Shown piece by piece: positions 808 through 62,190 of a stretch of 64,000 nucleotides of DNA. The notes under the pieces are model-generated. The model did no database searches, was not told where the DNA came from, and saw only the letters and a program-made list of their open reading frames with translations. Made by a program: the position numbers and the translations under genes. Within the stretch, counting starts at the first letter, position 1. Each line of letters begins with the position of its first letter. The DNA comes from Raja brachyura (taxonomy: Eukaryota), in assembly GCA_963514005.1 (NCBI GenBank), contig OY740795.1, positions 46,252,001-46,316,000 of the forward strand. The letters run 5' to 3'.

Positions 808-922
808 GCATGCATGTCAAAGCTACCATGGAATGCCAGCATCCTTATCAAAACAAAAGCATTTGTGAAACATTTGGGATTTGTAAACAATATGGAGGCT
901 ATCCTGGATATTGTATATTGAG

Positions 923-1012
923 AGATAGACACAAAATGCTGGAGTAACTCAGCAGGACAGGCAGCATCTCAGGAGAGAAGGATGGCGTTTTGGATAGAGA
1001 CTCTTCTTCAGA
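923..1012 (-). mobile_element. Penelope-terminus-derived short element (degenerate)
   Basis: Reverse complement of the 8168-8320 family. Confidence 0.7.
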
Positions 1013-3174: not shown

Positions 3175-3615
3175 AACCATATAACCATATAACAATTACA
3201 GCACGGAAACAGGCCCTCTCGGCCCTTCCAGTCCATGCCGACCATTCATTTTCCCCTAGTCCCATCTACCTGCACTCAGACCATACCCCTCCATTCCCTT
3301 CCCGTCCATATACCTATCCACTTTACTTTTAAATGTTAAAATCGATCCTGCCTCCACCACTTCTGCTGGAAGATCATTACACACAGCCACCACTCTCTGA
3401 GTAAAGAAGTTCCCCCTAATGTTACCCCTAAACTTCTGTCCCTTAATTCTCATGTCATGTCCTCTTGTTTGAATCTTCCCTACCCTCAATGGGAAAAGCT
3501 TATCCACGTCAACTCTGTCTATCCCTTTCATCATTTTAAAGACCTCAATCAAGTCCCCCCTTAACCTTCTGCGCTCCAAAGAATAAAGACCTAACTTGTT
3601 CAACCTTTCTATGCA
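3175..3615 (-). mobile_element. CR1 LINE 3' end
   Basis: LGLYSLERRRLRGDLIEVFK...TRGH...FFTQRVV ORF2 C-terminus plus tail. Confidence 0.9.
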
Positions 3616-4329
3616 ACATTTAACTATCAATGTAATAGTGTTGATCCATTTCTCATATACATTGCTTCTTCACAACAAGAGGCAATGCCAAGGTCAGATC
3701 TTAATTTTCTTGACTTTCTCACAGCAAGGATACCCCAACTTGGTGATGATATGTTTTTTTTTAATAACTTCTGATTTGCAGTTGCACTAACCTTAGTACG
3801 CATTTAATGCATAAAAGCAGGGGCAATTCAATATTGAAGCATACGTTTATGGTACTTCTTTGATGTACAGAAATAACATAAAAATGAGGGAAGAAAAACA
3901 TTACTAATAACTGGTAACTTTATGCAAGTTGTGGGATCTGTGGGTTTTGTTCAAAGCTCAATAAGTCTAACTCATGGAGATCCCTCACCTGCAACATATA
4001 TGTCTGGAAGCCACAACCATTATGAGTTGTACCATTCATGGGGCATTCATTCAGTAGCAGGCTTTCATCAAATAGTCAAGTCTCGCACCAAACATATTGC
4101 TCATTGATCAGCCTCAACTTCTGATTCTCCACCGCCATTACCTCCAGTACCACACCCACCTCCCATCCCACCATCACCACCACCCAGGAAACCTCTTCCC
4201 CAAATCTGTGGGTTCAGCCCTGGACCTGCCTGAATTTGTTATTTGTGGTGGCAAAGCCCAGGGAGGAAAAGCATTATGTGTTCAAGGCAGACTCAGGAGC
4301 CTATTTATTGAGTGAAAGATCCATCAATT

Positions 4330-4680
4330 GAAAGATACAGAATGGAAACAGGACCTTCATACCAACACGACCTTCAGCCCATTTCAAGTCCACGCCGACC
4401 ATCCATCACCCGTCCATACTAGTTCTATGTTATCTTACTTTCTCATCCACTCCCTACACACTAGGGGCAGTTTACAGAGACCAATTAAACTAGAAACAAT
4501 CTACTTTTAGAAAGAAAGCATGCCTTTGCGATGTGGGATAAAACTGGAGTACCCGGAGGAAAGCCATGTGGTCGGAAAGAGAACACATGAACTCCACACC
4601 GACAGCACCCAAGGTCATGATCAAACTAGGGTCTCTGGAGCTGTGAGGCAGTAGGTCTACCAGATTTACTACTGAGCTGT
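4330..4680 (-). mobile_element. V-SINE, diverged
   Basis: Reverse complement similar to 1673-1998. Confidence 0.7.
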
Positions 4681-7600
4681 ACAGGAGTATTGTCAAACAA
4701 AATATTCATTGACCCACCAAGATTAACTGAGTAATATGCTGACTGAGGCAAGTGGTGTATTATTTAATGCCTGGTAAATTGCTTTGTTCTGATATATCTA
4801 GGTTAGTCAGATCCTTATGATCTCTTTAGTTCAGTGCTGGTATTTCAGTAGGAAACACTGGAACTCAGCTTCTGCCCATACAAAGCTCACTCCATAGTTG
4901 AGGCGGGGTGTTATTGGAGGAAAACATAACTACTCTATTAGTTTAAATGCCAAAAAATGTAATAGCTGTTTACACTATGGATAGGCTGTCATCTTAATAA
5001 TGGTGCACATCACTTTGAAAGTAGTAAGTCATCTCAAGTATCACGTTCAATAATTCCAGCAGATTTTGCCCATTGTCTGGGATCAATGGCTGCTATAAAA
5101 CCTCATCCTGAGTGATGTTCTGCCTCACTGTAAGGAGGTTGGAGACTGATATCAATGTGGATCAAACATTTCAAGCAGATAAACATTGCTGAAAAATAGT
5201 TGCAGTTGTTAAGACAGTGATATCTTAATAACCCGTGATATGTTGCTAGGTCAGTAATAGGATAAAGGCCAGATTGAGGTCACGCTTGGTTGTGAGGCAA
5301 ATATGACCGTAAACATCCCTCTAAAATAGGAATACAAGTCTCAAAAATAAATTGCAGTGTGCACATCGACAAGGATGATTTTTCATAATATTTGCCATTT
5401 TTCAAAAACTATAAACTTTTTTTTAATTCCTGACAATCGATGAAATGTATCTTTCAATAAAATGTTTGAATTGTATTTTATTTCTGAATTTCATATAAAC
5501 TGTACGTGGTCACCGGGGAGTGAAGCCGGCAATATCTAATTGATTTTTTGTGTGATGCTATAAACAAAGTGAGTATAGCTCAAGATTTCATTACAACCAA
5601 GTCCGTCAGGCTACTATTATTTACAACCTAGATCAATTTCATATAAAACTTTTATTAAGATCATGCTCTTCTATTTGCTATCAATGTAGACAACAGCTGT
5701 GCCCTCAATATAAGAGATATGCCCTCAATATGAGATATGGTAACATTAATGTAAAATCTCCAGTAAATTTCAGAACTAATCTTCACACTTACTTGTTAAG
5801 GATACACTAAGTTTTTTCTTTCAAAGCTCCATCTCATCGATGAAAATAAGGAGCAGAGGTTACCATGCCCAATTTGTAGTGGCCAGTTTACACAGCACTG
5901 TAAAATTATTGAGCCAGGCCCATTAAGTATATTTTTATACAATATTTGAGCCTCTGAGTGACAAAATATTCGTTTTTATAAGGAATGTTATTTTACACTT
6001 CCTGGTTTTAATGGGGCAATTCAGTCTTAAACACAGTTGAAGTTTCTTATAAATATACAAGGCATTTTATGTTTGTACCTGAAACTGATTCAAAGCTTTT
6101 AACTTCACACACAAAATAATTATATCATTTAATTTAAATGATCCATAGACATTTTATGGGACAAATCTCCCAAAACTTTTAACTGATATACACAAAATGG
6201 TGGCAGCCCTGCCTTGATTTGTAGTGTTGGATGATACATTAATTATTCAAAATTTAAAAAGGACAAAAAAATCACCATGCAGTGTCTAAAACATGTGATA
6301 CAGATCACAAGGCAAAAATGTAGACTATCACATCTATACCAGAGAAACACATTTAGGTTGTATTTTTCCTATATGTATATGCCTTGAAAATAAATAATAA
6401 AAAAGTTTTGCTAAATAATTTTACCCAAGTATGAAAAAATATAATGTGAACTCTGTTAAAGCTGTACATTAATCATGTTAGCTAATATTAAATTTGTAAA
6501 TTAGCACAGCCTCTTTATTCTATTACATTGGATCAGTAACCTCCAGCTGTGAGCATGAGTTACCTGATTTACATGCCCAATAGAAGCACAGACATACAAA
6601 TTCAGACAGAAAATAGAACTGGTATTAAAACAATAAAGCTTTTGGGCATCGCTAATAAACTTGATGTTTAGTTTATTGTTAAAACATATCAATCTGAGAC
6701 ATGTTTACCTGGCCATTTACATTTTCATAGTTCTACTTCAAATTTTCTGAGCGGTATGTTATCTAAAAGAAAGATGTCTTATAAATTAACTGAAAATATT
6801 CCACGTGAGGCAAAAAGTGGAACGTTATAAAAGCAGTGAAACAGCAATATGAAGTGCACCACAGAGCAATATTTGAGATTTATTACCGCAAGAGTATAAA
6901 CATTGTTTATCTTTCAACTATACAGGAGGTTAATATCACAAATCAAAGGATGGGACGGAATAAAATGCCAGAGATATCATTCTACTCCAGAGCAAAATAG
7001 TGATTAAAAAATACTCAAACACATTATTTTATTGAGTAAGTCAGATGTTCACTGACCCATATCTAACAATGTGGAAAGTAATGCAATAAATGTTTTCAGA
7101 ATTTTGATTTTGAAAACAAAAGCAAAATTGCCATTAAGTATCTTATTTTATTAATACCATTTAGGTATTAATTTATTGTTTAGTGGTAGTTAGATGTTTA
7201 ACCTTTACAATGATCTTCTTGAGACAGTTGTCCACCACATTTTGTGTTGTGTGTTCTTTGGTAATAGCCACATTTAAAACCAACCTGTTCCAAAAGACGA
7301 GTCGTTTATTGTTTTTTATTAAATTCATATATCAGAGTAATAAAAATAACATTTCAATGTTCGCATTCAAATGATTGCTGTGTGAGTTTTATTAAAATGA
7401 GTATAAGGTCATTTAAGGTCATTTTGGAAGAAACAGAAAATGATCCCATTATTATGGTGGTGTTAAATTCTCCAACCATATGCCGGCAAGGCCTGCTGTA
7501 ACTCACAAGAGGGTTTGTTGAGTGGACAGATGGACCCTGATAGACAGCCTCTGTAAAGCCATCTGCTAGATCTAGATTGGGATTCTATTGACAATGCCTG

Positions 7601-8167
7601 ATGCATCAGCCATTAACTCCATTCTGGCATAGCAGCAAACTGGTGTGTAATGTGAAACCTAACCCCAGGACACACGTCAGTCTATCAATCTACTGTTACA
7701 GGTCATCCAGAGACAGTAGAAACATTGTGTGTCTGGTGCACCATGCATGCAAACCACTTGTCCAGACTGGTGGAGAAAACAATGCAAATGATAGGTACCC
7801 AAGCACCTTTTTAACTGCTTGCAAGATACTTAACAAATCTCCAAAATAATCCCATACATTCAGAATATCAACTGAAAGATCACAGATGGTGTTGTCTGCT
7901 TACTGTGTAGCATTTACAATTATCTGCTTACCCAAAGGCTATAAAGACAACATATTTGTTGACATTCTTAGATAAGCTTTATAATCAGAGAAGGAAGTTC
8001 AGGATGAGTTATTTTCTCCTGAAAAGGAAAGCTGAAGGTTGCCCAAATGGAGGTGTATAAACATTGTGAAAATGGGGAAGAGTTTCTTTGCATCAGGAAA
8101 GCCAGAACGATGAATGTCAAATAGTCACTAAGAGGTGAAATGGAAAAATTAGAAGCATTCTTTATCA

Positions 8168-8320
8168 CTCCCCCACTACCCTGACATCAGTCTGAGGAAG
8201 GGTCTCGACCCGAAACGTCACCCATTCCTTCTCTCCAGAGATGCTGCCTGTCCCGCTGAGTTACTCCAGCATTTTGTGTCTACCTTCGGTTTAAACCAGC
8301 ATCTGCAGTTCTTTCTTACA
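8168..8320 (+). mobile_element. Penelope-terminus-derived short element with hammerhead-like core
   Basis: CTGAGGA-AGGGTCTCGACCC-GAAAC-GTC at 8192-8219; TSD CATT(C/T)TTTATCA. Confidence 0.8.
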
Positions 8321-8858
8321 CATTTTTTATCAAGAAATTGATTTAAAAAAAATATGGAACTCATCACCACAGACATTGATATAAATAGTATTTTAATTTC
8401 ATACATAATAAATATGCACATGTAGGCAAGAGGATGTAAAGGTTAAATTGATAGCACTAGATGTAGAAGGAAGAGAGGTAACATGCGTAGAGGATGAATT
8501 CATTAGGCCATATGGTCTGTTTCTGTTTTGTACATTATGTTTAATTATTTCCATGCAATGAAGATCACCAGAAATTACTTTAAAAGACTTCAGCAGAAAC
8601 CATTAAAGCATTGCTTTTAAATAGCCAGCAGAGATTTGGAGTGTGTGGGAAGGAACTGCAGATGCTGGTTTACGTCGAAGATAGACAAAGAGATTTGGAG
8701 TGATTAGTTACTTCTGGGTAAGTGCCAGCACTTTTCTTCAGGAAGTTGTTAATATAAATCCTAGCAGAAGTCAAATTATAGAATAGATGTGAATTGCAAT
8801 TTGTCATTTTTTGCCCAATGGTTTGGGCGCACTTTCCAGTGTCTGTGTTTGAGGGATT

Positions 8859-9207
8859 TAGAAACATAGAAATTAGGTGCAGGAGTAGGCCATTCGACTC
8901 TTCGAGCCGCCATTCAATATGATCATGGCTGATCATCCAACTCAGTATCCCGTACCTGCCTTCTCTCCATACCCGCTGATCCCCTTAGCCACAAGGGCCA
9001 CATCTAACTCCCTCTTAAATATAGCCAATGAACTGGCCTCAACTACCCTCTGTGGCAGAGAGTTCCAGAGACCCACCACTCTCTGTGTGAAAAAAGTCCT
9101 TCTCATCTCGGTCCTAAAGGATTTCCCCCTTATCCTTAAGCTATGACCCCTTGTCCTGGACCTCCCCAACATCGGGAACAATCTTCCTGCATCTAGCCTG
9201 TCCAACC
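8859..9207 (-). mobile_element. CR1 LINE 3' end
   Basis: RTRGHSLRI...FFTQRVVGLWNSLP. Confidence 0.9.
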
Positions 9208-11088
9208 ATTTCAGTTCGAGATGAAAGAGTACATCAGTAAATCCTTGATAGCACTCAAACTATACAAAATCTTGACCAGAAGAATTATCAACTGTGAACT
9301 ACCAGCAAAGGAACGAGGGTGAAACACTAGCAAAGTGCACTGCTGTATACAAGATAATGAATATGGCAAAAGCTTTAAAATGTACCCAAGGCAATGTCTA
9401 CAATTAAAATATCTAAATCCAAATTAGCTGCAGAAAGCTATGGTCAGGGCTCTCGTCCTTACTATTGATTGTCCAGCTGCAATAAGTGTTACATTTCATT
9501 GGCTTACCAGCATCATTGTAGTACAATCATTTTTAATTTAAACAGATTTTTTATGTTACAATTTGAACTTCATTTAAGTATTTATACAGGATTAGTGAAT
9601 AAGAATGGTGGATTAACAGTTATCTAATTTATTAATCAAGGTAAGTTGTTGATTTTTTATATTAAGCAATCAAAATGAATGTTTTTTAATTGAGCCTTTA
9701 CTCCTTGCATTGCTGCACTAACTCCAATTAAAATGTTGCTTTTTCTGATCAGCCACTTGCAAATTCCTGATCTAAGTTCAGCTCTGTAATAATAATGTTT
9801 TGCCTGGCCCAATGTTGTTTACAAAAGAGACTCAGGCAGGAGGATGTGTTACGCACATATGGGATCCCTCTTGACCCTGATCACCAGTTCTGTGGGAAAG
9901 GGGTCAGTATATACGTCAATTGGATTCAGCTGATTCAAACAACCTGCATTTGTATGATACAAGCACTTGTGTATGACATGGCTAGACTAAGTGAAGGAAG
10001 AAACACAAAACGATCATCCAATTTAACCAATAAGTAGGTGGGAGAAACAAGGAATCAATAGAACTATAACTGATTAGATTTCCCAGGGTGTTCTTCAGTA
10101 GTTGGCTCATGGATATTTGCATCAAAGCTGCCAATTGCATGCTAGTGTTCTGGAATTAACTTCAGAAGAGCTCACTTCGTTCACCATTAATATGCAAAGT
10201 CAGGAGTGTGGAAGTGCCTTGAATTCAATCTCAGGAAAATACTACCCGTACCTCTGCTTTATGCAGTGGAGCCAAACGAGTAAAAATAAAACAAGGTCCT
10301 TGTGTGTGTACACTGAAAATTATTACCACTGGCTTTATGCAATATTGAGCTAATGAAGCAGTGATAACACTTCTGAGTTGCTGCAATCAATTTTTCGCTG
10401 TTACACTACTCTCATAGGTAACATTACTCAATGCAACATCAAGCCCAGTTTGAAACATGTTGTATTCTTGTTAAATTAAAGCAGCATTTTATTTACATGT
10501 TTTGGTTCTGCTCGAATTTGCAAAACATTGACATTTTATTGTCGAGCCTATGAAAGCCACACAACTTGTCATAGTTTTAAAGATTTGCAGCTCCCAATTT
10601 ATGTAATCTACTGCTTGTTGCAAACTGCTTTCTGTGGCTGGCACCCGAGTCCTGGAATAGAGTGGAACCCTAGTGTCAAACATGGTTGAGCAAAATCTCA
10701 TGCACGGTTGCTGATTTTGATTTACGTTCAATGACTTCTTGTTGAATATGCCTATATTACCATGTGCAGGGGACATATAGATACCAGCAATACCTCCAAA
10801 GGGCAGTAAACATGGCGAAAAAGCTACAACTTACTTTGGAAAGGAAATCAAAACAAAAATAGGCAGATACTGTAAATCTGAAATAAAAGCCTCCATCTTC
10901 AGTAGAGAAGGAAATATAAAATGTAGATTTGGGCAGGGTTCTAAATCTAACAGTCTGTCTTCAGAATAATGTAGTATGCTGGTAAGTGAGGTGAAGGTAT
11001 AGCAACAAACCAACAGAACTGCAGTTTAATTGTCTGGGCTAGATTCTGGGCATGGTTATGACAATGTAAAGTGGGAAGAGCAGAGAGA

Positions 11089-11210
11089 AGTCTGAATAAG
11101 GATCTCAACCGGAAACGTCACCCATTCCTTCTCTCCAGAGATGTTGCCTATCCGGCCGAGTTCCCCCAGCATTCTGTCTATCTTCGGTTTAAACCTGTTC
11201 TTTCCTACAT
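11089..11210 (+). mobile_element. Penelope-terminus-derived short element
   Basis: Same family; core mutated (CTGAATA). Confidence 0.75.
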
Positions 11211-13130: not shown

Positions 13131-13330
13131 AAGACAAAAAAAGCTGTAGTAACTCAGCGGGACAGGCAGCATCTCTGGAGAGAAGGAATGGGAGACGTTT
13201 CGGGTCGAGACCCTTCTTCAAACGTCACCCATTCCTTCTCTCCAGAGATGCTGTCTGACTCGCTGAGTTACTCCAGCTTTTTGTGTCTATCTTTGGTTGA
13301 AACCAGCATCTGCAGTTCCTTCCTACACAC
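13131..13330. mobile_element. Fold-back (inverted dimer) of the Penelope-terminus element
   Basis: Reverse copy then forward copy; 12-bp TSD TAGAAGGAAATT (13119-13130/13331-13342). Confidence 0.85.
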
Positions 13331-14187: not shown

Positions 14188-14188
14188 A

Positions 14189-14281
14189 TAGATAGACACA
14201 AGATGCTGGAGTAACTCAGCGGGACATGCAGCATCTCTGGAGAGAAGGAATGGGTAATGTTTCAGGTTGAGACCCTTCTTG
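14189..14281 (-). mobile_element. Penelope-terminus-derived short element
   Basis: Same family, reverse orientation. Confidence 0.75.
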
Positions 14282-14282
14282 A

Positions 14283-15392
14283 ATGAATTCATTAATGTTT
14301 ATTGGCCAAGTATGTACACATCCAAGGAATTTGCCTTGATGTTCCGCTCACAAGTAACAACATGACATACAGTAAACAATTAAAAATAAAACATAAAACA
14401 TTAAAACAGTAAGAATAAAAATTATAGTTTTCAACATGTGAATGAAATTAAATACCAGAGCAAAAGCAGGCTACAGACTTTTGGTTATTGAGTAGAGCTA
14501 CTACTCATATTTTATGTCTGTTTTTATGTCTGGCTATGGCGGCTTTGACAGTCTGGAGTCGCCTTCCAGAGGGAAGTGGTTCAAAGAGTTTGTGGCCAGG
14601 GTGAGAGGGGTCAGAGATGATCTTACCCGCTCGCTTCCTGGCCCTTGCAGTGTACAGTTCGTCAATGGGGGAAAAGCTGCAGCCAACAACCTTCTCAGCT
14701 GACCGAATGATTTGCTGCAGCCTCCAGATGTCGTGCTTGGTGGCTGAGCCAAACCAGACCATGATGGAGAAGGTGAGGACAGACTCTACGATGGCAGTAT
14801 AGAATTGGACCATCATTGCCGGTGGTAGATTGTGTTTCCTCAGCTGCCGCAGGATGTACATCCTCTGTTGGGCTTTTTGGTCTGCGGAATCGATGGTGGC
14901 CCCCCCCATTTAAGGTCCTTGGAGATGATGCTTCCAAGGAACTTAAAGGACTCCACAGATGTGACTGTGGAGTTGTTGATGGTGAGTGCGGGGAGAGGAT
15001 CGGGAGCTCTCCTAAAGTCTACAATCAATTCCACTGTCTAAGAGCATTGAGCTCCAGGTTGTTGCGATGGCACCAGGACACCAGCTGTGTCACTTCTTGT
15101 CTGTAGGCAGATTCCTCCCCATCCTGGATCAGTCCAATCAAGGTTGTGTCGTCCGTAAACTTGAGAAGCTTGACAGGAGTCTGTGGAGGTGTAGTCGTTG
15201 GTGTAGAGAGAGTAGAGGAGAGGGGAGAGTACGCAGCCTTGCGGTGCTCCTATGCTGAGGATCAGCGGGTCCGAGATGTGCCTTCCAAGCCTCACATTCT
15301 GCTTCCTGTCTGTCAGGAAGTTGGTGATCCACTGACAGAGGTGTTCAGGCACATTCAATTAGGAGAGTTTGAAGTGTAGTAGCTCTGGCCTT
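14283..15392 (-). mobile_element. Rex1/Babar-clade LINE, 5'-truncated, frameshifted RT
   Basis: WITNFLTDRKQ, GAPQGCVLSPLLYSLYTND, ELIVDFRR, FKFLG, KIISDPSHPGH..LPSGRR motifs. Confidence 0.9.
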
Positions 15393-16604
15393 CAGACCCT
15401 TTCAGATCTTGTATGTTTGATTAATGCTTTTTAACATACAATTACAAGAAAAGTATTGGCCAGAAATTTATGGACGATATTTCTCGTCTTCCTTGAAATG
15501 GAATTGGGTTGGGTTTTTTCTTGCATCCACCTAAGAGTGCGCGATGGAACCTGGTTTTAAACTGTCACCTGAAAGTTGGAACTTCCAGCATGCAGCACTC
15601 TTCTGGTTAATTGATTTTTTTTGCTCAAAATTCTGGTCGAGCAATTTCCCCATAGGTTTTGTATCCTGAGTGCTCTTGTGCACTACATTCTCAGAAAGAA
15701 ATAATTCCCTGGGGGTTTTCAATGCATATTTTCTCCCATGTGCAACCAAGTATCTCAAATAACTGTGTTATTGATAACGTTTGCCAGCAAGAATATTGGC
15801 AACTCATCTCACCGTTGACTCTCACATTTGAAATTAAAGATGATCATTGTAAAGATTGCTGCAGTCATGCTTGTCGAAAAAACGTGATCAGTGGTACGTA
15901 ACATTTGAAATAGGAAGGTTCTCTTCAGCCAAACATTGATTTTTTCGATGACAAGAGCAACGTGTATGTGTAAGCTGGATAAAGCTGGACAAAGAGCTGT
16001 AGGGGGAGGTCTGGGGTGGGGGTCTAACAACTCATGCTTTCAAGGACGGATGCAGGAGGCCCTCCCATAGGGCATGAATGTTGAAGGACCAGAGAGGAGA
16101 GGGCAGCTTACTGGTAGTGGTAATGGCACCTCTTCACACCAAACATTGATCTATTTGAGGACAGGACAATGTGTATGTGTAAGCTAAACAAAGTTTACCT
16201 ATGAATTCCTTCTTATTTCAGGATGAATTTCCCTTAAATACGGACAGAAACTGCTGGAATACTCATCATGTCAAGTAGCATCGGTGGAAACAAAAAACAG
16301 TAAGTGTTTTTGGCCTAAAACATCTGGCATTATCTGGCATTTTTTGTTTCACATTTTCAGCGTCCACGTTTTATTTGTTCATTGCCCTAAATATAGGTAT
16401 TTTTAGATAATATTATCTTACCGAAGTTTCTGAAGTGTTGATGAAGGGCTACACACAGTGGTGCTTATTATATATCACCTCTCAGCAAATATCTTGCACA
16501 TGGAATAAGAAATTAAGGAAACAAAAGTTGCATTTGTTTTTATTGCAGGGGAGGTGTGAACAAAAGTAGAGACCTCTTGCTTCAGTTACACAGGGTCCTG
16601 ATAA

Positions 16605-16945: not shown

Positions 16946-16987
16946 TAAGGCAGCATCTGAGTTATTGTTGCTGAACTTGTATTTTAA

Positions 16988-17110
16988 ACTGTAGGGAGAT
17001 GTTGGAGATGGTCCAAGTGAATTTGAGTGTAGGGTGGAAATTTGTAGTAAAGTCATTGAAGTCAGTGATTTCTGCATGGGAGCAGGAGGTCGCACCGTTG
17101 CAGTCATCTG
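16988..17110 (-). mobile_element. Penelope-like RT remnant (short)
   Basis: SCSHAEITDFNDFTTNFHPTLKFTWTISNISL. Confidence 0.7.
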
Positions 17111-17560
17111 GGTTATTGTCTAACCTCCCTGGTTTGGGGAGTATATTATTGCCAAAAGTGCAGTGAAGGTTCATCATCATTGATTCCTTTGATCATAGTG
17201 TTGGTGTGGGGGGTGGGGTGGGGGGGGTGGGGGGGGGGGGGGGCAAGAGTAGTTATATGACGTGAAATTACTTTAGAAGATTGAAGGGTGATCTCAACAT
17301 ATACAATTCCTATGGGGCTTGAGCAGACAAGGGTTGGTGTTTCTTCTGGCTGGATGTCTCGAAACAGGGGACACAGAATCACAATAACAGATTGAAATAA
17401 CCAGGACAGGGGTGAAAACAATCTCTCTGGAATTCTCTACTCAAGATGCTCAGGCTCAGTCACAGAGAATATCCAAGTCAGATTATTAGGTTTCCAAAGT
17501 TAAACATTATATGGGGTTACTGTATAAAACAGCACTACGGTAAAAGTTTGACCACAGTTT

Positions 17561-27420: not shown

Positions 27421-27429
27421 TTTTTTTAA

Positions 27430-28829: not shown

Positions 28830-29415
28830 TGTTATGGGTGGGAAGTGAAGAGTGAACCAAGGAGTTGCAGAGGAAGCTGTCTCTGCAGAAGGTGGAAAGG
28901 GGTGATGATGGGAAGATGTGCTGGTGGTAGGATCACGTGGAAGGTGGAGTAAATGTTGGAGAATGATGTCTTGGATGGAGAGGCCAATGGGGGGTGAAAG
29001 GTAAGGACCAGGGAACTCTATCCTAGTTCCATTTGGGGGGAGGGGGGGAGTGATAGTAGAATTATGGAGACTTGGGTGAGGGATTCATCTATGACAGAAG
29101 GGAGGCAACCATGTTTACTAAAGAAAGAGGACATCTCATGCCCAACAATAGAAAGCCTCACCTGGGGACCAGGTGCGGTGGAGATGGACATTGAGAGTAG
29201 GGGATAGCATCTTTGCAAGAGGTAGAGTTGAATGCGGTGTTGTCCAAATATCTGCAGAAGTCGGTGGCTTTGCAGTAGACATCAGTTGATAGTCTATCTT
29301 CTGTGATGGAGACAGAGCAATCAAGGGAGGGAGGAAATATGTCAGAGATAGTCCAAGTGCATTTGAGGGCAGGGTGGAAGTTAATGGTAGAGTGAGTGAA
29401 ATCCACGTGTTCTTC
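28830..29415 (-). mobile_element. Penelope-like RT remnant
   Basis: NFHPALKCTWTISD..SLDCSVSITEDRLSTDVYCKATD..YLD...SCKDAIPYSQ, a typical PLE RT C-terminal region. Confidence 0.8.
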
Positions 29416-30999
29416 GGGGGACTTTAAAGAAAATCTGATTTTATGCAATCAATGACCGTATCAGAGCCGTTAGTAAGCAGACCGCACAGATTTATTATCC
29501 GCGAAAGGGTAGATGATAACATCAAGAAAAATAATATTGGCACAGATGTTGTTGTGATCTGGAACGCATTTCCTAGAGGGAGGTGGGAAAATCGTGGGGC
29601 AAGAGAGGGGAGCATTTGGAATGAGTGAATGGTTCTTTCAAAGAACCGTGATAATCATGATTGGATAATCTTTGTCCCTTTCCATGCTACCATGAGAAGC
29701 AAATAAACGCCAGAATTTCATAAAGTCTCTGGTTTATGGGAACAGCGTTGTTGTCACTGAGGCGAGACACTATTCAATGACAGTGAAAAAAAACCTTAGC
29801 ATTGTACAGAGGTGTGGTTGGTAAATGTACTGGTAAGAAATAGTGAGAACAGTGGTTGAAATTAACTGTACATTTTCTGAATGAGCTGGTACGGAACTAC
29901 GAAAGCGCGACGAGACACAATGGCAACGTTAAAAGGCAGAAGGGTGTATGTAAAATATGCGGCCATCAATATTCACTAGCAACTGGGGAGATCGGGCTGA
30001 AGCGTGCGGTTCTTATGAATCGATCAAGAATCACGGGACAGGATTCATCGACCACCGACCCGCTGTAAGAGTAAATGAGTGGAACTGAAGGTACCACTGA
30101 TCAAAGAATTCCTTGATGTAACTGGAGAATTCATTCCAACAAACCAAAACAACTAGTGCAAAACATTAAGAAAAATATTGTTGGCAGAGGCGATCCTAAG
30201 TAAAGTCAGTAAAAAATAATATTTTTGTTTTATGCTGGCGTTATTTTGATTTTTCTTCCAATTTCTCGATTATTGTTTGCTGCTCTTGTCTCGTAGGAGG
30301 CAGCGTTCAAACTGACTTTTATTTCCAGATGCCAACATGTTACAACTGCGGTGCAACATGTTCACTATCCGTAATGAGTTGTTGCATTCATTGTGAGCCA
30401 TAAGACCGTAAGACCAGTGCCCGAGCGGTAAAAAGTGATACAACCGGCTGGAAATAGATACATTACCACCAGGTTACGCACAGTTTTTGTTTCTACTGAT
30501 TCTTATAACAGCATGAATACGGAATGAGATTAACGTGCCCACACGCATTTTTTTGGTTACGTATCCGATAAGCACACAATTTAAAAACCCAATACTTTGT
30601 GGGCAGTGGCTTTCGAGATGTTTTTATATCTTTATATTCGAATCGGTTAACCGCTTGCCATTTATTAATTCGCCAGTCGGGCTAAAACCCAGAATAAACG
30701 GAGCCTTTAGACTTTAGGCTTTAGAGATCCCTGAATATATTGCTGGTTCAAATAGAAACAAGTGCATTTTTTGCAGTCACTCTTTTGGGGTAAGATACTT
30801 GACTGTGATTAAACCTTTAACTACGCTGAAGATGCTGTCGAATCTCCACGCAACACCAATAACGTTAAAGTGAACCACAGTCGGTTCTGATGCAATTCAC
30901 CAAAATAACTTTTTGAAGCAACTGCTGTTAGTTGGACAGTTTGGGTGCCATTATATTCATTGAGCGATTGTGATCACGCATTTGGGGGTTATGAATACA

Positions 31000-34616: not shown

Positions 34617-35278
34617 CTGAATATTCCTGGTGGAAATGTTAAATAAATAGCATTATATGCGGGGGCGGGGGGGAGACCAAACCAGAGAATAACATTAACT
34701 ACGTCGTTCTCTTTTATTTTAATGGCCACTTTCCTCTTCTACAGGGTGGGTGGTGTAGGGTGGAGCTTTATGTTTAAAATGTGTGTGTTGGAAGCACTTG
34801 CATTCACACAATGACTTGCACAAAAGAAACATCAAACGATGCTGCGGGTAGGTGGGGTGATGAAGGACATTAGAGCGAGCAAGAGAATGAATGGGGATCT
34901 GATGCAAGACTGCAGGGTTTAGGTTTCCAACGTTTTGAGGCATGCGGAAAGATAAAACAAGGCAGAAAATGGGTGTGAATAGAATTGCAGGCGGCCAGGC
35001 TTTGATGTCTTTGCATTTGCATCATTGTTGCAAAGGGAGGCAGATTGTGGAAGGACAGAGGATGCGAACTGAACTGCAGGTTTGGAATGATTGGGGAGAC
35101 AATGCTAGGTAAAGCACAGGGGTGTATTAGTAAAATGAAATAACACCAACGTTATGGAAAGGGCCAGGCAGGAATTGATGCCAATGATCATATCCTGGAT
35201 GGCAGGGTGAACATTATGGCTCATTCCCATTCCTGTTCATTATATTCCTGTGAGACACCCAGTATCAGGGAGAGGGAT

Positions 35279-35571
35279 GTGTAGGAACCAACTACAGATG
35301 CTGGTTTAGGCCAAAGATAGACACAAAAAGCTGGAGTAACTCAGCAGGACAGGCAGCATCTCTGGAGAAAAGGAATAGGTGACGTTTCAGGTCAAGACCC
35401 TTTTTCAGAGTGAGAGTCCGTGAGATTAGGAATCTTAGAAGAACGGTTTTCTCTCCCAGACCTTTCCCCTGACTCAGTCTGAGGAAGGGTCTCGAACCAT
35501 AACGTCACCGGTTCCTTTTCTCCAGAGGTGCTTCCCTGACCCGCTGAATTACTCCAGCTTTTTGTGTCTAT
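35279..35571. mobile_element. Fold-back pair of Penelope-terminus elements with a short spacer
   Basis: Reverse copy 35279-35420, forward copy about 35465-35571. Confidence 0.8.
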
Positions 35572-35746
35572 ATTAGGGAGGGGAAGATGGGTTTACTCTG
35601 AAGTTGATGCAAAATTTTAAGCTCATCTGAGGTCCAAAACAATAAGTTAGTTCATCATGCATGGGCAGTGAGAACAGCGATGGGGGATATTGGTAAAGGA
35701 GACCGTTTGAAAGGGAAGGACAAATATAGCTCAGGAGATACACATG

Positions 35747-38068: not shown

Positions 38069-39014
38069 AAGATTCACAGATTGACAAACCTGGGCAAGAT
38101 TGAAACAGTTTGAACAGCTTGAAAGATAAAAATTCCCATAGGAATAGGGAATTAGATCATTAGATTTGGGCTGTGAAGATTGAGGATGTGTCAGAAACAG
38201 AGGAGAGGGATCAGGATGGAACCAGGATCAAAGAGATGAGAGGTTTTGGGGAGGAATAGCAACAGTCAGGTCGCATCATCTCGTGGAGGCTTTGAAGCAG
38301 ATATAATGGATCCAGCAGGTAAGCAGAAAAATAACTACTTCCTTCAAAACACCAGCTTTTCAATTGGCACCAAAAACCTGGCACAAGTTAGAATTAATAA
38401 TTCTATTCCAGTTAGGATGGATAATTATATTCAAGTTAGAATGGATAATTCCTGGTCAGCTAAATGGTCAGTTTTCATGTTCTGTGACTATTAAATATGA
38501 GGCATGCATCTTCATTACAGTATTTAAATTGCCAACTTTCTTCCTGTGAACAGCTTGGTCCCTCAAACCTCACTTCTCTGAATGACTCATACATTTAACA
38601 TTTGATCATCTTTCCTGTCCCAGTAGTCCAACACATTCTAGCATGAAAATTTAATGCCTACTATGTTTTCAGTGTTTGCATTGTCTTATTTAAGACACAT
38701 TGAAATGTGTATTTTCTCCGTATATCAATGATTCAGCATCAAAGAAATCTGAACATAAAGCACAGAAAACCTGTAAACCAGGAAGAGAGAAAAAAAAAAG
38801 ACAAGGCTGGTAAAATTTTGATTAAATAACATTATCTAGGCCCCCTAAATGGATTCTGAATCAATTCAATTCCAAATATGGATTTTTTTTAAGTGCCTGA
38901 TTTGATCTATGGACAACAGTGAATTAACCAACCTTGACTTACAGATGTCCTGGCAAATATTTATCCATCAATAAATATTATTTTAACAACGGCAGGTTAT
39001 TTACTTCTTTTGTA

Positions 39015-39200
39015 AATCGAAGGTAGACACAAAGTTATGGAGTAACTCAGCGGGTGAGGCACCTATTCCTTCTCACTGGAGTGATGTTTTGGGTCTGGAC
39101 ACTTCTTCAGACTGATGTCAGGGGAGTAGTTGGGAGAGAGAAAGAATGTAGTCGGAGACAGTGTGACTAGTGCGAGAACTTGCAAGGGGGAGGGGATGAT
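39015..39200 (-). mobile_element. Penelope terminus plus part of the 3' UTR
   Basis: Same family, reverse orientation. Confidence 0.65.
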
Positions 39201-39860: not shown

Positions 39861-40468
39861 GGTAGGTGAGGTTCAACGTTTACATGACACAGTATTTTTT
39901 TTTGGTAAGGAGACAGATTAGAAACTAGATTGCTGCTCCTATTGTGGGGCAGTACCGTTGTGGATCAGAGGTTGAAACTGATAAAGAAAAATAAAATAGT
40001 CCATGAGAAAAATAACGAGATGCTGAAATTGTGAAATGAGAACAGGGAAAATATGGAAACGCTTAGCAGGTCAGGCAACATTTGTAGAAATAAAAACAGT
40101 GTTAAGGTTTCAGGTCAACGACCTTTCATTGGAATTCTGAATTACTTCACTTTGTAATGGAAATCTCCACTCTCAAAGATTACACTAAATGCTTAATATT
40201 GCTATTCTGAGGAAAGAGCATCTGAATTTACCCACCTGTTTTTCTCCATAAGAAAGTTTTAGTTCATGCAGGACCTTTTATGCTCTCAGGAAGTCCTTCA
40301 TATCCAATTAAGTACTTCATTGCTACCAAGTGATAACATGCAGCTGCCAATATGGCAATACCAGACTTCAACAAACAACTTCAGTTGCAAGAAAACAGTG
40401 TCTCCTTCCTGCGCTAGCTGAAACATTAGGGTCTAGTTATGAGCATACATTAATATCTAGCTGATGTT

Positions 40469-43775: not shown

Positions 43776-44282
43776 TAAGTAAAATCAAATTTCCCCCACA
43801 TGGCATCTATTGATAGATTGTAACTAATTGGGTTGAAATACAGGCTGTGCTGTCCACTGACTTTTCTCAGTTTTGATGAAAGATCATTAACCTGAAATTT
43901 TTATTATACCTCTCTCCCCACAGAAGCTGTCTGTTGTACAGAGTATTTACAGAATTATCAGTTTTCTTTTATTTGGATTTCCAGCCTTTGAAGTTTTTGC
44001 TTCTTAATTAGGATAAATTATGACACTAATAGTGAAATCTATCTGCAGTGCATTTGAAACAATCATCAATCTACATTTTTGCTGAATTGAAATTAGTCAT
44101 GAAACTACCCAAGAAAACAGAGCTTTTCCTGCTGCCCAGCAAGAGATTTCATTTTCATACAAATGAAGTAGATGCTCATATTCTCAGATCAAAATGTGCC
44201 TATTAATCCATTGTAGACAACATGGGCATTTTAATTGCATAAGTACATGCAAATGAAGCATGGAAATCATGAAAACCAACAG

Positions 44283-46719: not shown

Positions 46720-47660
46720 AGATTGTCACATTTAAGCACCTTACATTGTTCTGAATTAAGCTTCATCTGCTTTTGCTCAGCCCAATGGCCCATTTGATCA
46801 CAGTCCCATTGTAGTCTTGGAGTAACTTTCTTCACTATCCACTATATCACCAACTTTGGGCACACATGCAAAGTTAGTAAACAGATCATTTACATTCAAA
46901 TCTCAAGTGTCAATATAAATAACAAACAATCATGGACCCAGAGCTGATGTCTGCGGCATGCCGCTCATTACAGGCCACCAGTCTGAAAAACAACCCTCTA
47001 CCATCACGGATAGACACAAAATACTGGAACAACTCAGCGGGTCAGGCAACATCTCTGGAGAAAATGGATAGATGGTGTTTTGAGTTGGGTCCCATCTTCA
47101 AACTCTGATGTTTCTCAATACAAAATGTAATTGATCCATTTTCTCCAGAGAAGCTGCCCAACCAGTTGGAGTTACTCCAGCATTTTATGTCTACCTGTGG
47201 TATAAACCAGCATCTGCAGTTTATTTTTATTACCTCTCCCATCACAGTCTATCTTCTACTTTAAAGCCCATTTTGTAGCCAGTTGGCTAGCTCGCACTGG
47301 ATCTTATATAATCTCAACTTCCAGGCCCACCTATCATGTAGTGCCTTGTCAAAGGCCTTGCTAAAGTCCATGTAGACAATGTCTGCTACACTATTCTCAT
47401 CAATCTTCTTCTCATCTCTTCAAAAATGTTTTAAAACTTCCCATTTACAAGAAGTACCTTTATCTGCAAACCTCCTCACCCAATCAACTTCTGAAAAGTT
47501 TATGGCGAATACCATCAGAATTGGACTTGCCCAGTTTTGGGACCTCAACTTTTGGACCAGTCTTATCCATTCCACAATTATTTGAAAATTAAAGGAATTA
47601 TGGTTACCGATTCCAAAGTGCTCCCCTATTAACAGTTCAATCAGCCGGCCTCTTAATTTC
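46720..47660 (-). mobile_element. Old CR1 RT fragment
   Basis: LQWDCDQMGHWAEQKQMKLNSEQCKVL; VYMDFSKAFDK motif near 47340-47380. Confidence 0.65.
47008..47232. mobile_element. Fold-back Penelope-terminus element nested in an old CR1
   Basis: TSD CCTCT(A/C)CCATCAC (46995-47007/47233-47245). Confidence 0.75.
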
Positions 47661-51140: not shown

Positions 51141-51670
51141 GTAAATAGTAAAATTTTAAGTGGCTTCTAGGGTGGAGGTCGATCGATCTGTTGTTCATCA
51201 GATGTTCTCGACATTTGACTTCTTACAAGACACACCTCCAAGGTGAAGTTCACGATTTGATAGTGTTTGGAGCACTTACTATTTCCAAACAACCACTGTT
51301 ATTCTGGTAAATAAAAGCTAGATAATGACGTTTTAAATTGTTGTGGTGACAACTGTGTATCCCATGACAGATAATCTAGACTCTAATCCCTTTAGTGATA
51401 AACGTATGCAGGGAAGAAATATACCATGTGATTGCCTTGTGGTCTAGTTAGTTCTGAAAAGGACCAGCTCAATTTTCCATCCATCTCCACCCATTGGGGC
51501 TATTTTACCCCCCACCCATGTTTTGATATTTGTTTGAATTTAATAGATCATGTGGCAAAAAAAAGAAATATGTGCCCATTGACGCTGCATTGAAAATATG
51601 TAAATTAAATGACTGGAGGCAGAATTCTAAGAATATCTAAGCATGATTTAGCTTTCTTGACAAATGGTAC

Positions 51671-51746
51671 GTAGACACTAAATGCTGGAGTAACTCAGCG
51701 GGAGAGAAGGAATGGGTGACGTTTCGGGTCGACACCCTTCCTCAGA
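51671..51746 (-). mobile_element. Penelope-terminus element with intact hammerhead-like core (antisense to the gene)
   Basis: Minus strand CTGAGGA-AGGGTGTCGACCC-GAAAC-GTC (51718-51745). Confidence 0.75.
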
Positions 51747-53375: not shown

Positions 53376-53449
53376 GTAAAACAATGTTTAGCTTCATTTG
53401 AAAGAACGTGCATCAAGAAAATATCTTGTCCCACTAACATTTGACTAAA

Positions 53450-53785
53450 AAAGACACAAAGTGCTGGAGTAACTCAGCAGGTCAGGCAGCATCTCTGGAG
53501 AACATGAATTTAGTTTAGTTTAGTGATACAGCATTGAAATTAGGCCCGTCGCCCCTTTGAGTCCACACCCGCCATCATTTACCCGTTCACACTAGTTCTG
53601 TTAGCCCATAAAAGGACACAAAGTGCTGAACTAACGCAGGCAGCATCTCTGAAGAAAATGGATAGATGACACTTTATGTTGGCATGCATCTCCAGATTTG
53701 AAATGTCACAATGCTGCCTGACCTGCTGAGTTACTGCAGCACCTTTTGTCTTTTTTGGTAAACCAGCCTCTGCAGGTCTTTGTGT
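53450..53785. mobile_element. Cluster of Penelope-terminus fragments with a V-SINE tail
   Basis: Two reverse copies and one forward copy interrupted by a SINE 3' end (about 53507-53605). Confidence 0.65.
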
Positions 53786-53899: not shown

Positions 53900-54760
53900 A
53901 CCACCTCTAAAGTCTGTTTTGGAAAGGCGCGGTCGAGTGGTGACCATGTACTGTTGGACAGGACAACATGTGTAGTCAATGGCTCAGTGGCCCTAAGACA
54001 GATTGAGGAATATTAATTATCAATTGGGAGCACGTTACGTGTTGCCTTGGCAGGGGGTGTATGTAGAGAAAATTCAAAATGAGCCTGGAGGGGATGATTG
54101 AGTTGATGCTGAGCTGTAGTCGATGAACAGGAGCATGTTGTATGTGTTAAAGAAGGAACTGCAGATGCTGGAGAATCGAGGGTACACAAAAGGCTGGAGA
54201 AACTCAGTGGGTGCAGCAGCATCTAGGGAGTGAAGGAGATAGGCAACGTTTCGGGCCGAACCCCTTCTTCAGACTCAATGTTGTATGTGTTCCTGTTATC
54301 GAGAAGGTCCAGAGCAGTGTGGAGAGCCAGTGAGATAGCATCTGTTGTTGAACTGTTATGGCGAGAGACAAGTTGACCACCCAGGTAATTTCTAAAGCAG
54401 GAGTTGATTTGTTCCATAACCAACCCCTCAAAACAATTCCTTACAGTGGCTGCAAGAGCTGCTGGACAGTAGTCATTGAGACGGGTCACCATGCTTGCTT
54501 GCCTTGTGCACTGATATGAAGCAGATGAGGACCTCAGACGCTGGAGCATTTAAATACACCAGCCAGATGGTCCACAAGGGTCTTTAGCATTGGCCAGATA
54601 CACCACCATGTATGGACACTCTGCATGGATTCACCCTCTTGAAGGATGCTCTAAGATCAGCCTCGGAGACTAGATCACAACATCGTCAGGGGCTTTGGGG
54701 ATTTGTGTAGGTGTGCCATTGATCTGTCTTTCACAGTGTGTCTATAGTGCATTGACCTAT
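53900..54760 (-). mobile_element. Degenerate Rex1-like LINE RT fragment
   Basis: LNDYCPAALAATVRNCFEGLV...TTDAISLALHTALDLLD. Confidence 0.7.
54149..54277 (-). mobile_element. Penelope-terminus element (second subfamily) inserted in a Rex-like LINE
   Basis: 14-bp TSD ATGTTGTATGTGTT (54135-54148/54278-54291); minus-strand core CTGAAGA-AGGGGTTCGGCCC-GAAAC-GTT. Confidence 0.85.
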
Positions 54761-61625: not shown

Positions 61626-62000
61626 GTATGTAAACACTATAAAATAAGCAGCATACACCTTTGTAATGAAAAGGAACTGCTTACCAAAGAAAGATACAAA
61701 GATACTCAGAGGGTCAGGCAGCATCTCTGGAGAACATGGATAGGCGACATTTCGAGTCGGGATCCTTTTTCACTCAAGTCTTCCGACTGAGAAGATATAC
61801 CATAGAATACATTTGTTGAATATTTCAGTGAGTAAGTGATTTCAGCTTAGCTGTAGCTGACCAGAAGTGTAACTAGATGCCAAAAGGCCTAAAATGGCGG
61901 ATATATTTTCCCGTGTCTGTGGTCAGTATAGTTCAGTTTATTATTGTCACGTGGACCAAGGTACAGTGATATTCCTCATCTTAGAGAAAGGCTGAAGAAG

Positions 62001-62190
62001 GTCGACACAAAAAGCTGGAGTAATTCAGCGGATCAGACAGCATCTCTGGAGAAAAGGAATAGGTGACGTTTTGGGTCGAGACCGTTCTTCAGACTGCAGT
62101 CCAGAGATGCTGCCTGACCCGCTGAATTACTCCAGCTTTTTGTGTCTATCTTCGGTTTAAACCAGTATCTGCAGTTCCTTTGTGCAGATC
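62001..62190. mobile_element. Fold-back Penelope-terminus element
   Basis: 13-bp TSD AAGGCTGAAGAAG (61988-62000/62191-62203). Confidence 0.8.

What the first reader, a model, noticed from the sequence alone, without database searches (positions are those of the whole stretch)
8168..8320. Abundant short mobile elements carrying a minimal hammerhead-ribozyme-like core (retrozyme-like family)
Seen: about 20 copies of a ~130-150 bp unit across 64 kb begin with CTGANGA-A-GGGT(CTCG)ACCC-GAAAC-GTC (best + copy 8192-8219; intact minus-strand copies 51718-51745 and 54245-54272). Stem II varies while keeping its pairing across subfamilies (GGGT-CTCG-ACCC, GGGT-TCG-GCCC, and AGGTC-GTT-GACCT on the minus strand near 40108-40130). 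Established: Penelope-like elements carry minimal type I hammerheads with a palindromic ACGU helix III that cleave as dimers. Inference: this is a non-autonomous, ribozyme-bearing Penelope derivative. Caveat: stem I is only about 2 bp (GU/AC) in these copies and an extra A precedes stem II, so activity is uncertain.
Basis: partly seen in the sequence, partly recalled or inferred. Interest (0 to 1): 0.8.

Follow-up and report, generated by a model that had tools for sequence, protein, structure and literature searches.

The report
Penelope retrotransposon stubs with minimal hammerhead
These short repeats are stump-sized insertions of the ribozyme-bearing end of a protein-coding Penelope-like retrotransposon, a known kind of element that here has about a million copies, and many stumps seem to run from the element's internal copying start to the very first letter of its RNA.

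Summary
The repeat is real (28 profile hits in the window, about 1.2 million genome-wide, 4% of sampled bases), but only 2 window copies keep a fully intact core. It is not a free-standing retrozyme. It is the pseudo-LTR of an endonuclease-bearing Penelope-like element (RT, Cys-rich linker, GIY-YIG; Neptune type by the linker): it follows the ORF end in 27 of 30 loci picked by coding DNA, and also precedes the ORF start. Copies show the textbook signs: optional ~35-nt tail, head-to-head inversions with one tailed arm, 7-18 bp target duplications. The extra A and the 2-bp helix I have published precedents. Not found in the papers I read: 70 of 117 copies reaching the motif stop within 8 nt at its 5' edge, not at the cleavage site. 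An extra G before that edge is enriched and sometimes lies outside the duplication, as for a copied cap. I read most stubs as complete run-off products from the internal RT start to a transcription start just before the hammerhead (about 50%). A competing hairpin probably keeps the ribozyme off; cleavage is untested. The scan reported similar stubs in two other shark-like genomes.

The parts
8168..8325 (+). One insertion of the PLE pseudo-LTR: about 19 nt of pyrimidine-rich 3' UTR, the hammerhead unit and the tail
   Evidence: Homology boundaries; flanked by a duplication
8161..8167 (+). 5' copy of the target-site duplication TTTATCA
   Evidence: Sequence
8326..8332 (+). 3' copy of the target-site duplication TTTATCA
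   Evidence: Sequence
8187..8193 (+). Initiator-like TCAGTC (motif recalled); hot spot of 5' ends of family copies; proposed transcription start at about A8189/G8190 (inferred)
   Evidence: 5'-end hazard 0.108/nt here vs 0.003-0.04 elsewhere; extra-G counts
8192..8219 (+). Minimal type I hammerhead: CUGAGGA 8192-8198, extra A 8199, stem II 8200-8211, GAAA 8212-8215, palindrome ACGU 8215-8218, putative cut after C8219; helix I only G8190-C8221 and U8191-A8220
   Evidence: Sequence; pair counts; compare PMC4209133
8194..8230 (+). Predicted competing hairpin: 8194-8203 pairs with 8220-8230 and buries the core (-14 vs -3.9 kcal/mol for the hammerhead fold); z-score only -1.3
   Evidence: prediction only
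8283..8323 (+). Optional tail between the two 3'-end classes (about 8283-8293 and about 8320-8323), the inferred pair of internal RT start sites
   Evidence: Bimodal 3' ends; PMC11167929
13131..13330 (.). Head-to-head inverted pair centred near stem II, one arm tailed, 12-bp duplication TAGAAGGAAATT
35277..35576 (.). Head-to-head pair, tailed minus arm and tail-less plus arm
47003..47229 (.). Head-to-head pair, decayed
53602..53784 (.). Head-to-head pair, decayed
61997..62186 (.). Head-to-head pair with a 13-bp duplication AAGGCTGAAGAAG
51662..51746 (-). Solo copy with intact core and a 17-nt internal deletion
54142..54276 (-). Solo tailed copy that starts at the proposed start A with a G in front of it
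39012..39198 (-). Copy extending about 80 nt into the 3' UTR (upstream limit approximate)
40054..40131 (-). Old-subfamily copy: AGGTC/GACCT stem II, both core boxes broken
43874..43999 (+). Old-subfamily copy, decayed
921..1012 (-). Further solo copy; others at 1523-1626, 8645-8702, 11089-11208, 14188-14280, 16231-16317, 27332-27433, 34529-34624, 53445-53509, 58417-58528, 58900-58993, 61670-61773
28834..29421 (-). Decayed fragment of PLE RT-thumb/linker coding sequence
   Evidence: tblastn with P0017, E 8e-18
16986..17138 (-). Short fragment of PLE RT coding sequence
   Evidence: tblastn with P0017/P0002, E 4e-11

Best explanation
The units are insertion products of an autonomous-type, endonuclease-bearing Penelope-like retrotransposon (Neptune type by its Cys-rich linker). 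SHOWN: the unit is the element's pLTR. It lies about 105-135 nt (one subfamily 245-295 nt) after the end of an RT-linker-GIY-YIG ORF and again about 35 nt before the ORF's ATG. Copies have two fixed 3' ends, variable 5' ends, target duplications and head-to-head inversions with one tailed arm. FROM LITERATURE: PLE reverse transcription starts at two sites inside the RNA, which define the tail. INFERRED (about 50%): the element's capped RNA starts 2-3 nt before the hammerhead core. When RT starts at the tail sites of the first unit it runs only 100-135 nt to the cap and yields the commonest product, a hammerhead-to-tail stub, sometimes with a cap-derived G. Starting at the downstream unit copies into the 3' UTR and ORF and gives the rarer long copies. 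INFERRED: priming at both ends of the cut gives the inverted pairs. INFERRED: the ribozyme is off by default (2-bp helix I, competing hairpin) and at most cleaves as a dimer or with the protein's help; cleavage does not define the stubs. The confidence given is for the identity and origin of the units.
For: 27 of 30 loci picked by pre-endonuclease coding DNA have the unit 230-300 bp downstream. Loci picked by the unit extend 5' by variable lengths into GIY-YIG coding DNA. Pfam GIY-YIG E 4e-4 and RVT_1 E 0.04 on natural frames, both below curated cut-offs; 31 longer homologues, most with RT annotation, best E 1e-75. In loci picked by the ORF start, the unit and tail run into the ATG. 3' ends: 80 tailed, 86 tail-less, 32 other of 198. 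39 head-to-head pairs: 21 tail + no tail, 1 tail + tail, about 6 expected, P 0.008. Shared flank repeats of 8 nt or more in 10 of 39 pairs vs none in the swapped control. 5' ends: 70 of 117 at-risk copies end at model positions 0-7, only 5 of 198 at 32-36 around the cut site. About half of the ORF-linked 5' units that include stem II start at the same place (5 of 10 by eye). Base before the start A genome-wide: C 26,897, G 3,451, A 2,162, T 1,450; G/(A+T) 0.96 vs 0.56 background. A single base between duplication and start A: 5 of 40 G copies vs 0 of 40 A/T copies. Cap-G precedent: PMC3287187.
Against: No intact full-length ORF was found; the longest copies are broken. The cap signal is modest. 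About 30 of 100 listed G contexts are explained by microhomology with the partner arm (by eye). In one search G lay inside the duplication as often as alone outside it (5 and 5; Fisher P 0.09 vs A/T), 50 of 80 copies had no duplication of 7 nt or more, and the loci were hand-picked. In contigs of related organisms the first loose base at the proposed start was A, not G, by majority (table 7). No RNA 5'-end data. In D. virilis the start lies about 120 nt upstream of the hammerhead, across an intron (PMC2377424, PMC4209133). Two subfamilies (CCATGTT type and the old one) were not seen next to endonuclease-coding DNA. Unrecognised upstream subfamilies could inflate the hot spot.
Confidence: 0.85

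Rival explanations
1. Same element, but the stubs are ordinary 5' truncations. The pile-up at the hammerhead's 5' edge comes from the self-complementary TCAG-T-CTGA, from fold-back or microhomology joining, or from an intron end there, not from the RNA's start.
For: Many inverted pairs are joined at this palindrome or at stem II. 46 of 130 anchored copies have an inverted arm upstream. The upstream tract is pyrimidine-rich and ends in CAG like a splice acceptor, and in D. virilis the intron ends at helix I (PMC4209133). G often comes from the partner arm or the target.
Against: Solo copies and ORF-linked copies stop at the same place. No shared upstream exon among copies ending there. No CT..AC or GT..AG joint among the 15 of 101 joints shown. 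The predicted strong hairpin would stall RT near position 45, where the hazard is 0.0065/nt. The G excess remains after removing templated cases from both classes.
Confidence: 0.4
2. One reading: a self-standing non-autonomous family (retrozyme- or SINE-like) whose short RNA is transcribed from stubs and mobilised in trans by the PLE protein.
For: Only 8 of 130 anchored random copies have endonuclease-coding DNA within 700 nt upstream. Two subfamilies were not seen beside coding DNA. The D. virilis promoter is internal (PMC2377424), so a stub starting at the start site could carry its own promoter. Animal retrozymes derive from pLTRs (bioRxiv 10.64898/2026.07.22.740005).
Against: No tandem arrays of the unit in the window; 12 direct neighbours among 201 hits. 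No ends at the cleavage site. All six living-looking classes include copies with native pyrimidine-rich upstream sequence. In the anole PLE the RT needs RNA about 55 nt beyond the tail (PMC11167929), which stubs lack.
Confidence: 0.12
3. The hammerhead cleaves efficiently in vivo, and cleavage with circularisation defines the mobile unit, as proposed for retrozymes and for PLE circles.
For: All catalytic positions are intact in the majority sequence of every large subfamily. About 76,000 intact cores extrapolated from 11 in 390 kb. Core and stem II persist while the upstream 3' UTR has turned over into at least five unrelated types.
Against: Neither 5' nor 3' ends accumulate at the cut site. 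Helix I is 2 bp: the third pair forms in 9 of 180 copies. Stem II probability is below 0.5 in all 33 intact copies folded, and the competing hairpin is above 0.5 in 55%. In the anole PLE, ribozyme mutants insert normally and cleavage needs the protein. 8 of 9 Xenopus dimers did not cleave.
Confidence: 0.08

Closest known systems
Minimal hammerheads (min-HHR) in pLTRs of metazoan Penelope-like elements (Cervera and de la Pena 2014, PMC4209133)
   Same: Type I topology, no helix III beyond a palindrome, extra base between positions 9 and 10.1, G10.1-C11.1 pair, mostly single dispersed motifs from truncated PLEs; 2-bp helix I as in D. virilis.
   Different: Helix II is 4-5 bp rather than 6-8. Abundance is far higher (about 76,000 intact cores and 1.2 million pieces extrapolated, vs 4,000-9,000 motifs reported for coelacanth and Xenopus with another method). 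A competing hairpin covers the core.
EN+ Penelope-like elements, Neptune clade (Craig et al. 2021, PMC8557442)
   Same: Single RT + C-terminal GIY-YIG ORF, CX2-5CxxC linker, partial tandems, inverted 5' copies, 30-40 bp tail usually at one end, heavy 5' truncation.
   Different: Clade set by the linker only; no RT tree with named references was built. The stop of most copies at the hammerhead's 5' edge was not described in the passages read.
Poseidon of Anolis carolinensis, PAc (Frangieh et al. 2024, PMC11167929)
   Same: Two internal RT start sites bracketing the tail; hammerhead near the ORF start; no sign that cleaved RNA is the template.
   Different: In PAc the ORF begins in stem II and the tail lies inside the ORF. 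Here the ATG is about 35 nt after the tail, so hammerhead and tail are non-coding.
Animal non-LTR retrozymes (Cervera and de la Pena 2020, PMC7229834; Li et al. 2026, bioRxiv 10.64898/2026.07.22.740005)
   Same: Type I hammerhead, kinship with pLTRs, no coding capacity in the short copies.
   Different: Retrozymes are tandem 150-450 bp repeats with (mostly canonical) hammerheads that give circular RNAs. These units are 100-135 bp singles or inverted pairs with a minimal motif, linked to the coding element.
Cap-derived untemplated G at 5' junctions of full-length L1/SVA insertions (PMC3287187)
   Same: A G between the 5' duplication and the first templated base.
   Different: Here the signal is weaker and marks very short products.

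Membership tests
EN+ Penelope-like element | Telomerase-like RT followed by C-terminal GIY-YIG endonuclease in one ORF, linked to the repeat | tested here: met
   RT motif (YIDD) and GIY-YIG frames collinear with 750-900 aa homologues; Pfam scores on the broken genomic frames are below cut-off
EN+ Penelope-like element | pLTR present after the ORF and before it (partial tandem) | tested here: met
   27 of 30 downstream; unit + tail + ATG upstream; L128 holds ORF end, unit and ORF start in series
EN+ Penelope-like element | Optional 30-40 bp tail, usually at one end of inverted structures | tested here: met
   Bimodal ends; 21 of 39 pairs tail + no tail, 1 tail + tail
EN+ Penelope-like element | An intact, currently active master copy | tested here: inconclusive
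   None among the long copies fetched; the searches return only the best 40 candidates; main subfamily median 9% from its majority sequence
Neptune clade | CX2-5CxxC zinc-finger linker between RT and EN | tested here: met
   C-x4-C-x2-C before the GIY-YIG in many loci; criterion from PMC8557442; shared with Nematis
Neptune clade | RT phylogeny with named clade members | not testable with these tools
   No labelled Repbase/Dfam references on hand
Metazoan PLE min-HHR | Core boxes CUGANGA and GAAA, extra base after A9, G10.1-C11.1, palindromic helix III, NUH triplet | tested here: met
   Majority sequences of all large subfamilies; old subfamily has A-U at the first stem II pair
Metazoan PLE min-HHR | Helix I of 4-5 bp | tested here: not met
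   2 bp in young subfamilies; third pair in 9 of 180 copies. D. virilis precedent for 2 bp. The old subfamily may be longer (decayed copies)
Metazoan PLE min-HHR | Covariation of helices | tested here: inconclusive
   None above independence among copies. In 18 hand-picked copies G-C/U-A in helix I (9/6) and G-C/A-U in helix II (10/3); 14 of 500 shuffles reach the score, which relatedness alone can give
Metazoan PLE min-HHR | Self-cleavage as dimer or with protein | not testable with these tools
   Needs in vitro assay
Non-LTR retrozyme | Tandem 150-450 bp repeats, each with a hammerhead | tested here: not met
   No such array in the window; 12 direct neighbours among 201 hits; one 66-bp tandem of a fragment in L044
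Non-LTR retrozyme | Independent of a coding element | tested here: not met
   two subfamilies remain unlinked in the sample
Non-LTR retrozyme | Circular RNA of unit length | not testable with these tools
   Only assembled contigs were available

The most novel reading that the evidence does not exclude
A Penelope element whose capped RNA begins right at its hammerhead, so that internal initiation of reverse transcription makes a fixed 100-135 nt 'strong-stop-like' cDNA that is itself integrated. This would explain about a million SINE-like stubs without any non-autonomous partner, explain the eroded helix I (the RNA has only 2-3 nt before the core), and let transcription starts and both RT start sites of a PLE be read from genome junctions alone.
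Probability: 0.45. Interest if true: 0.62.

Novelty: new member of a known kind. Interest (0 to 1): 0.4.

Why it matters
The ribozyme-bearing repeat is of a known kind, so the finding as first stated is ordinary apart from its scale (about 4% of a 2.7-Gb genome). The usable part is mechanistic. How PLEs move, why they leave tails and inversions, and what the hammerhead does are open questions. This family offers hundreds of thousands of junctions that record both ends of each cDNA. They argue that cleaved RNA is not the template, agree with the two-start-site model shown in vitro for one lizard element, and suggest a testable origin for solo pLTRs as run-off products ending at the RNA cap.

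Tried and rejected
Rfam scan: no hammerhead family hit; it matched only the 13153-13268 palindrome to miRNA models, rejected as an inverted insertion. PDB search with an RT frame: 0 hits. RNA evidence: no RNA holder listed on record; 18 rows were guessed RNA. Contigs of 4 runs show the unit about 8-10 times deeper than endonuclease-coding DNA and loose ends at the same boundaries, but cannot show expression, strand or starts, and may be DNA. Splicing at the acceptor-like CAG before the core or the donor-like sequence at the ATG: no canonical joint among the 15 of 101 joints listed; not excluded. Folding z-scores of five copies were -0.1 to -2.4, mostly unremarkable. Core conservation above the rest among copies: not found. 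An early upstream-extension screen by BLAST missed short extensions and was replaced by anchored alignment with simulated truncations. A control count of extra G at a non-start position (before T7) was not obtained, so the G excess has only the trinucleotide background and the A/T junction sample as controls. Literature searches: 'hammerhead + Penelope', 'Penelope, skate, shark, hammerhead ribozyme' (28), 'Penelope, transcription start, pLTR' (59), 'Penelope, Neptune, cartilaginous' (60), 'Penelope, pLTR, solo, cap' (76), 'skate genome, Penelope, repeat' (89, 0 papers), 'Penelope, elasmobranch, transposable' (95) showed no description of this family or of cap-anchored stubs. Lunse et al. 2017 is not held, Dfam and Repbase could not be consulted, and the supplements of PMC4209133 and of the 2026 preprint (which reports chondrichthyan retrozyme families) were not seen and may cover this repeat.

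Full report
OBSERVATION. The sequence at 8192-8219 is CTGAGGA-A-GGGTCTCGACCC-GAAAC-GTC as stated. BLAST with the copy finds 26 pieces in the window, and a profile built from genomic copies finds 28 hits, with 0 on a reversed 390-kb control. 18 of the 28 span the core, but only 2 keep a strict core with paired stem II. The copy near 40108-40130 has the AGGTC/GACCT stem but broken core boxes. Rfam finds no hammerhead. The window lies in a 2.7-Gb genome; a cartilaginous fish is my inference, from a Chiloscyllium homologue at 59-70% identity and from recall. In 39 random 10-kb stretches there were 175 hits covering 4.1% of bases, about 1.2 million genome-wide (bootstrap 0.93-1.5 million; arms of inverted pairs count separately). 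One 29-mer of the motif occurs exactly 33,960 times (sum).

WHAT IT IS. Thirty genomic loci picked by the unit share a fixed 3' end and run 5' for variable lengths; the long ones enter a frame with a C-x4-C-x2-C linker and a GIY-YIG motif. In the reciprocal test, 27 of 30 loci picked only by coding DNA upstream of the endonuclease have the unit 230-300 bp downstream. Natural frames give Pfam GIY-YIG (E 4e-4) and RVT_1 (E 0.04), both under the curated cut-offs. A search among longer proteins gave 31 homologues of 647-1027 aa, most with RT annotation, best E 1e-75, and the long genomic copies are collinear with them. Walking upstream reached the ORF start: the unit and its tail run into an ATG about 35 nt later, and L128 holds ORF end, unit and ORF start in series. 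So the unit is the pseudo-LTR of an EN+ Penelope-like element. The linker points to the Neptune clade (PMC8557442, passages); no RT tree was possible. No intact ORF was seen. Two decayed coding fragments lie in the window.

PLE SIGNATURES. Of 198 hits in the random sample plus window, 80 end with a tail, 86 about 35 nt earlier, 32 elsewhere. 78 hits form 39 head-to-head pairs: 21 tail + no tail, 8 no tail on both, 1 tail on both (about 6 expected, P 0.008), 9 other. 10 of the 39 pairs share 8-16 nt in their flanks, none in a swapped control. The given copy spans 8168-8325 inside a 7-bp duplication. These are the features described for PLEs (PMC8557442 and PMC3846280, passages), and the tail matches the two internal RT start sites shown in vitro for the anole element (PMC11167929, parts 1-2 of 4). 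Only 8 of 130 anchored copies have endonuclease-coding DNA within 700 nt, so stubs dominate.

THE RIBOZYME. The majority sequence of every large subfamily has all catalytic positions. The extra A and a 2-bp helix I are both published for PLE hammerheads (PMC4209133, parts 1-2 of 4). Among copies the core decays like the rest (13/300 vs 58/981) and pairing is near the independent expectation. Between subfamilies there are compensatory changes in 18 hand-picked copies (G-C/U-A 9/6; G-C/A-U 10/3), with 14 of 500 shuffles reaching the score, which is weak. The unit is shared while the upstream 3' UTR falls into at least five unrelated types, which suggests constraint on master elements, though it could act on the RT-binding stems or promoter rather than on catalysis. 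Helix I stops at 2 bp (third pair 9 of 180). The bases after the cut site pair better with the core than with helix I: -14 vs -3.9 kcal/mol; stem II probability was under 0.5 in all 33 intact copies folded. Only 5 of 198 copies start at positions 32-36 and almost none end there, so cleaved RNA is not the template. This agrees with the anole data, where core mutants insert normally and cleavage needs the protein, and with 8 of 9 inactive Xenopus dimers (bioRxiv 10.64898/2026.07.22.740005, parts 1-3 of 5).

THE 5' HOT SPOT. Anchored extension against a library of upstream types put 66 of 130 5' ends at model positions 0-7 (8186-8193); simulated truncations drifted mostly 0-2 nt. The chance of ending per nucleotide is 0.108 there, 0.003-0.02 downstream and 0.01-0.04 upstream (70 of 117 at risk). 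About half of the ORF-linked 5' units that include stem II start there too (5 of 10 by eye). The site reads TCAGTC, like an initiator (motif recalled; an Inr-like TCACT is reported in a rotifer pLTR). Before the A at position 3 the genome has C 26,897, G 3,451, A 2,162, T 1,450 times; G/(A+T) is 0.96, or 0.83 with a shorter pattern, against 0.56 from trinucleotide background. By eye about 30 of 100 listed contexts in each class are templated by the partner arm or a micro-duplication, which leaves the ratio about unchanged. In unselected loci G preceded 10 of 16 starts at positions 3-4 and 2 of 15 at positions 1-2 (after dropping one duplicate locus and one mutated copy; Fisher P 0.009). In 80 hand-picked junctions (40 G, 40 A/T), 30 had a duplication of 7 nt or more (swapped control 7%). 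A lone base between duplication and start occurred in 5 G and 0 A/T copies, the base lay inside the duplication in 5 and 6, and outside with filler in 7 and 7 (P 0.09). An untemplated G there is the mark attributed to cap copying in L1/SVA insertions (PMC3287187, passages). Against this: contigs from related organisms showed A rather than G as the majority loose base at that place, and the D. virilis start lies further upstream (PMC2377424, parts 2-3 of 4). I put the start-site reading at about 50%.

MECHANISM. Shown: linkage to the ORF, two 3' ends, inversions, duplications, 5' hot spot, no ends at the cut site. From literature: internal initiation, cutting of both strands, pLTR promoter. Inferred: the RNA starts at the hammerhead; initiation at the first unit gives run-off stubs, initiation at the downstream unit gives long truncated copies; priming from both cut ends, one at each start site, gives the one-tailed inversions; the ribozyme is held off, which would also spare the cap.

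RIVALS. Ordinary truncation with a palindrome- or microhomology-driven hot spot (0.4, for the hot-spot question only). A self-propagating non-autonomous family (0.12): two subfamilies were not seen beside coding DNA, but there are no tandem arrays and retrozymes are defined by them (PMC7229834, passages). Cleavage-defined circles (0.08).

NOVELTY. The kind is known: solo min-HHRs from truncated PLEs were described in 2014. Seven literature searches showed no account of this family or of cap-anchored stubs, but Dfam, Repbase, Lunse et al. 2017 and relevant supplements were not seen. Other papers were seen only as passages and added little (PMC9004415, PMC6765202, PMC6155905, PMC6431247). Two earlier reports of this scan describe similar stubs in other shark-like genomes; they agree but are not independent evidence. 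Verdict: new member of a known kind, interest 0.4; the cap-anchored run-off model is the part worth testing.

Noticed in passing
window 31312-31700 (+), in a GC-rich stretch at 30-36 kb: A 126-aa methionine-started frame that looks like the first coding exon of a host gene; no Pfam hit and no usable Atlas hit.
   Followed up: partly
window 3256-3669, 27433-27908, 44284-44912 and about 20 other 300-500 bp stretches: Many 3' fragments of a CR1/L2-type LINE family (label recalled from the translated C-terminal motif), plus other mid-copy repeats at 8859-9211, 39498-39848, 40471-40897.
   Followed up: no
window 14505-14909 (-): LINE-like frame that hits Pfam ALKBH8_N at E 6e-11; most likely a retroelement fragment matched by that model rather than an ALKBH8 exon.
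   Followed up: no
window 16604-16946: A repeat with terminal inverted ends (AAGGGCCTGTCCCACT... ...AGTGGGACAGGCCCTT), MITE-like; seen also in L074 and L100.
   Followed up: no
L044, about 610-1165 nt upstream of the coding match: A 66-bp fragment of the unit (positions 33-99, starting at the putative cut site) repeated about 8 times in tandem; a possible satellite birth from a pLTR.
   Followed up: no
L109, L118, L121, L128, L132, L133, L247 at the ORF start: The ATG sits inside a perfect-looking splice donor (AAG/GTATG); PLEs are known for 5' introns, but no spliced joint was seen.
   Followed up: partly
L146 and L171 (random stretches of contigs C3 and C23): Two random 10-kb samples share the same insertions and flanks, pointing to a segmental duplication or large repeat.
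   Followed up: no
L099 3040-4156 (oriented): A 27-bp-period tandem expansion inside the N-terminal coding part of a long PLE copy.
   Followed up: no
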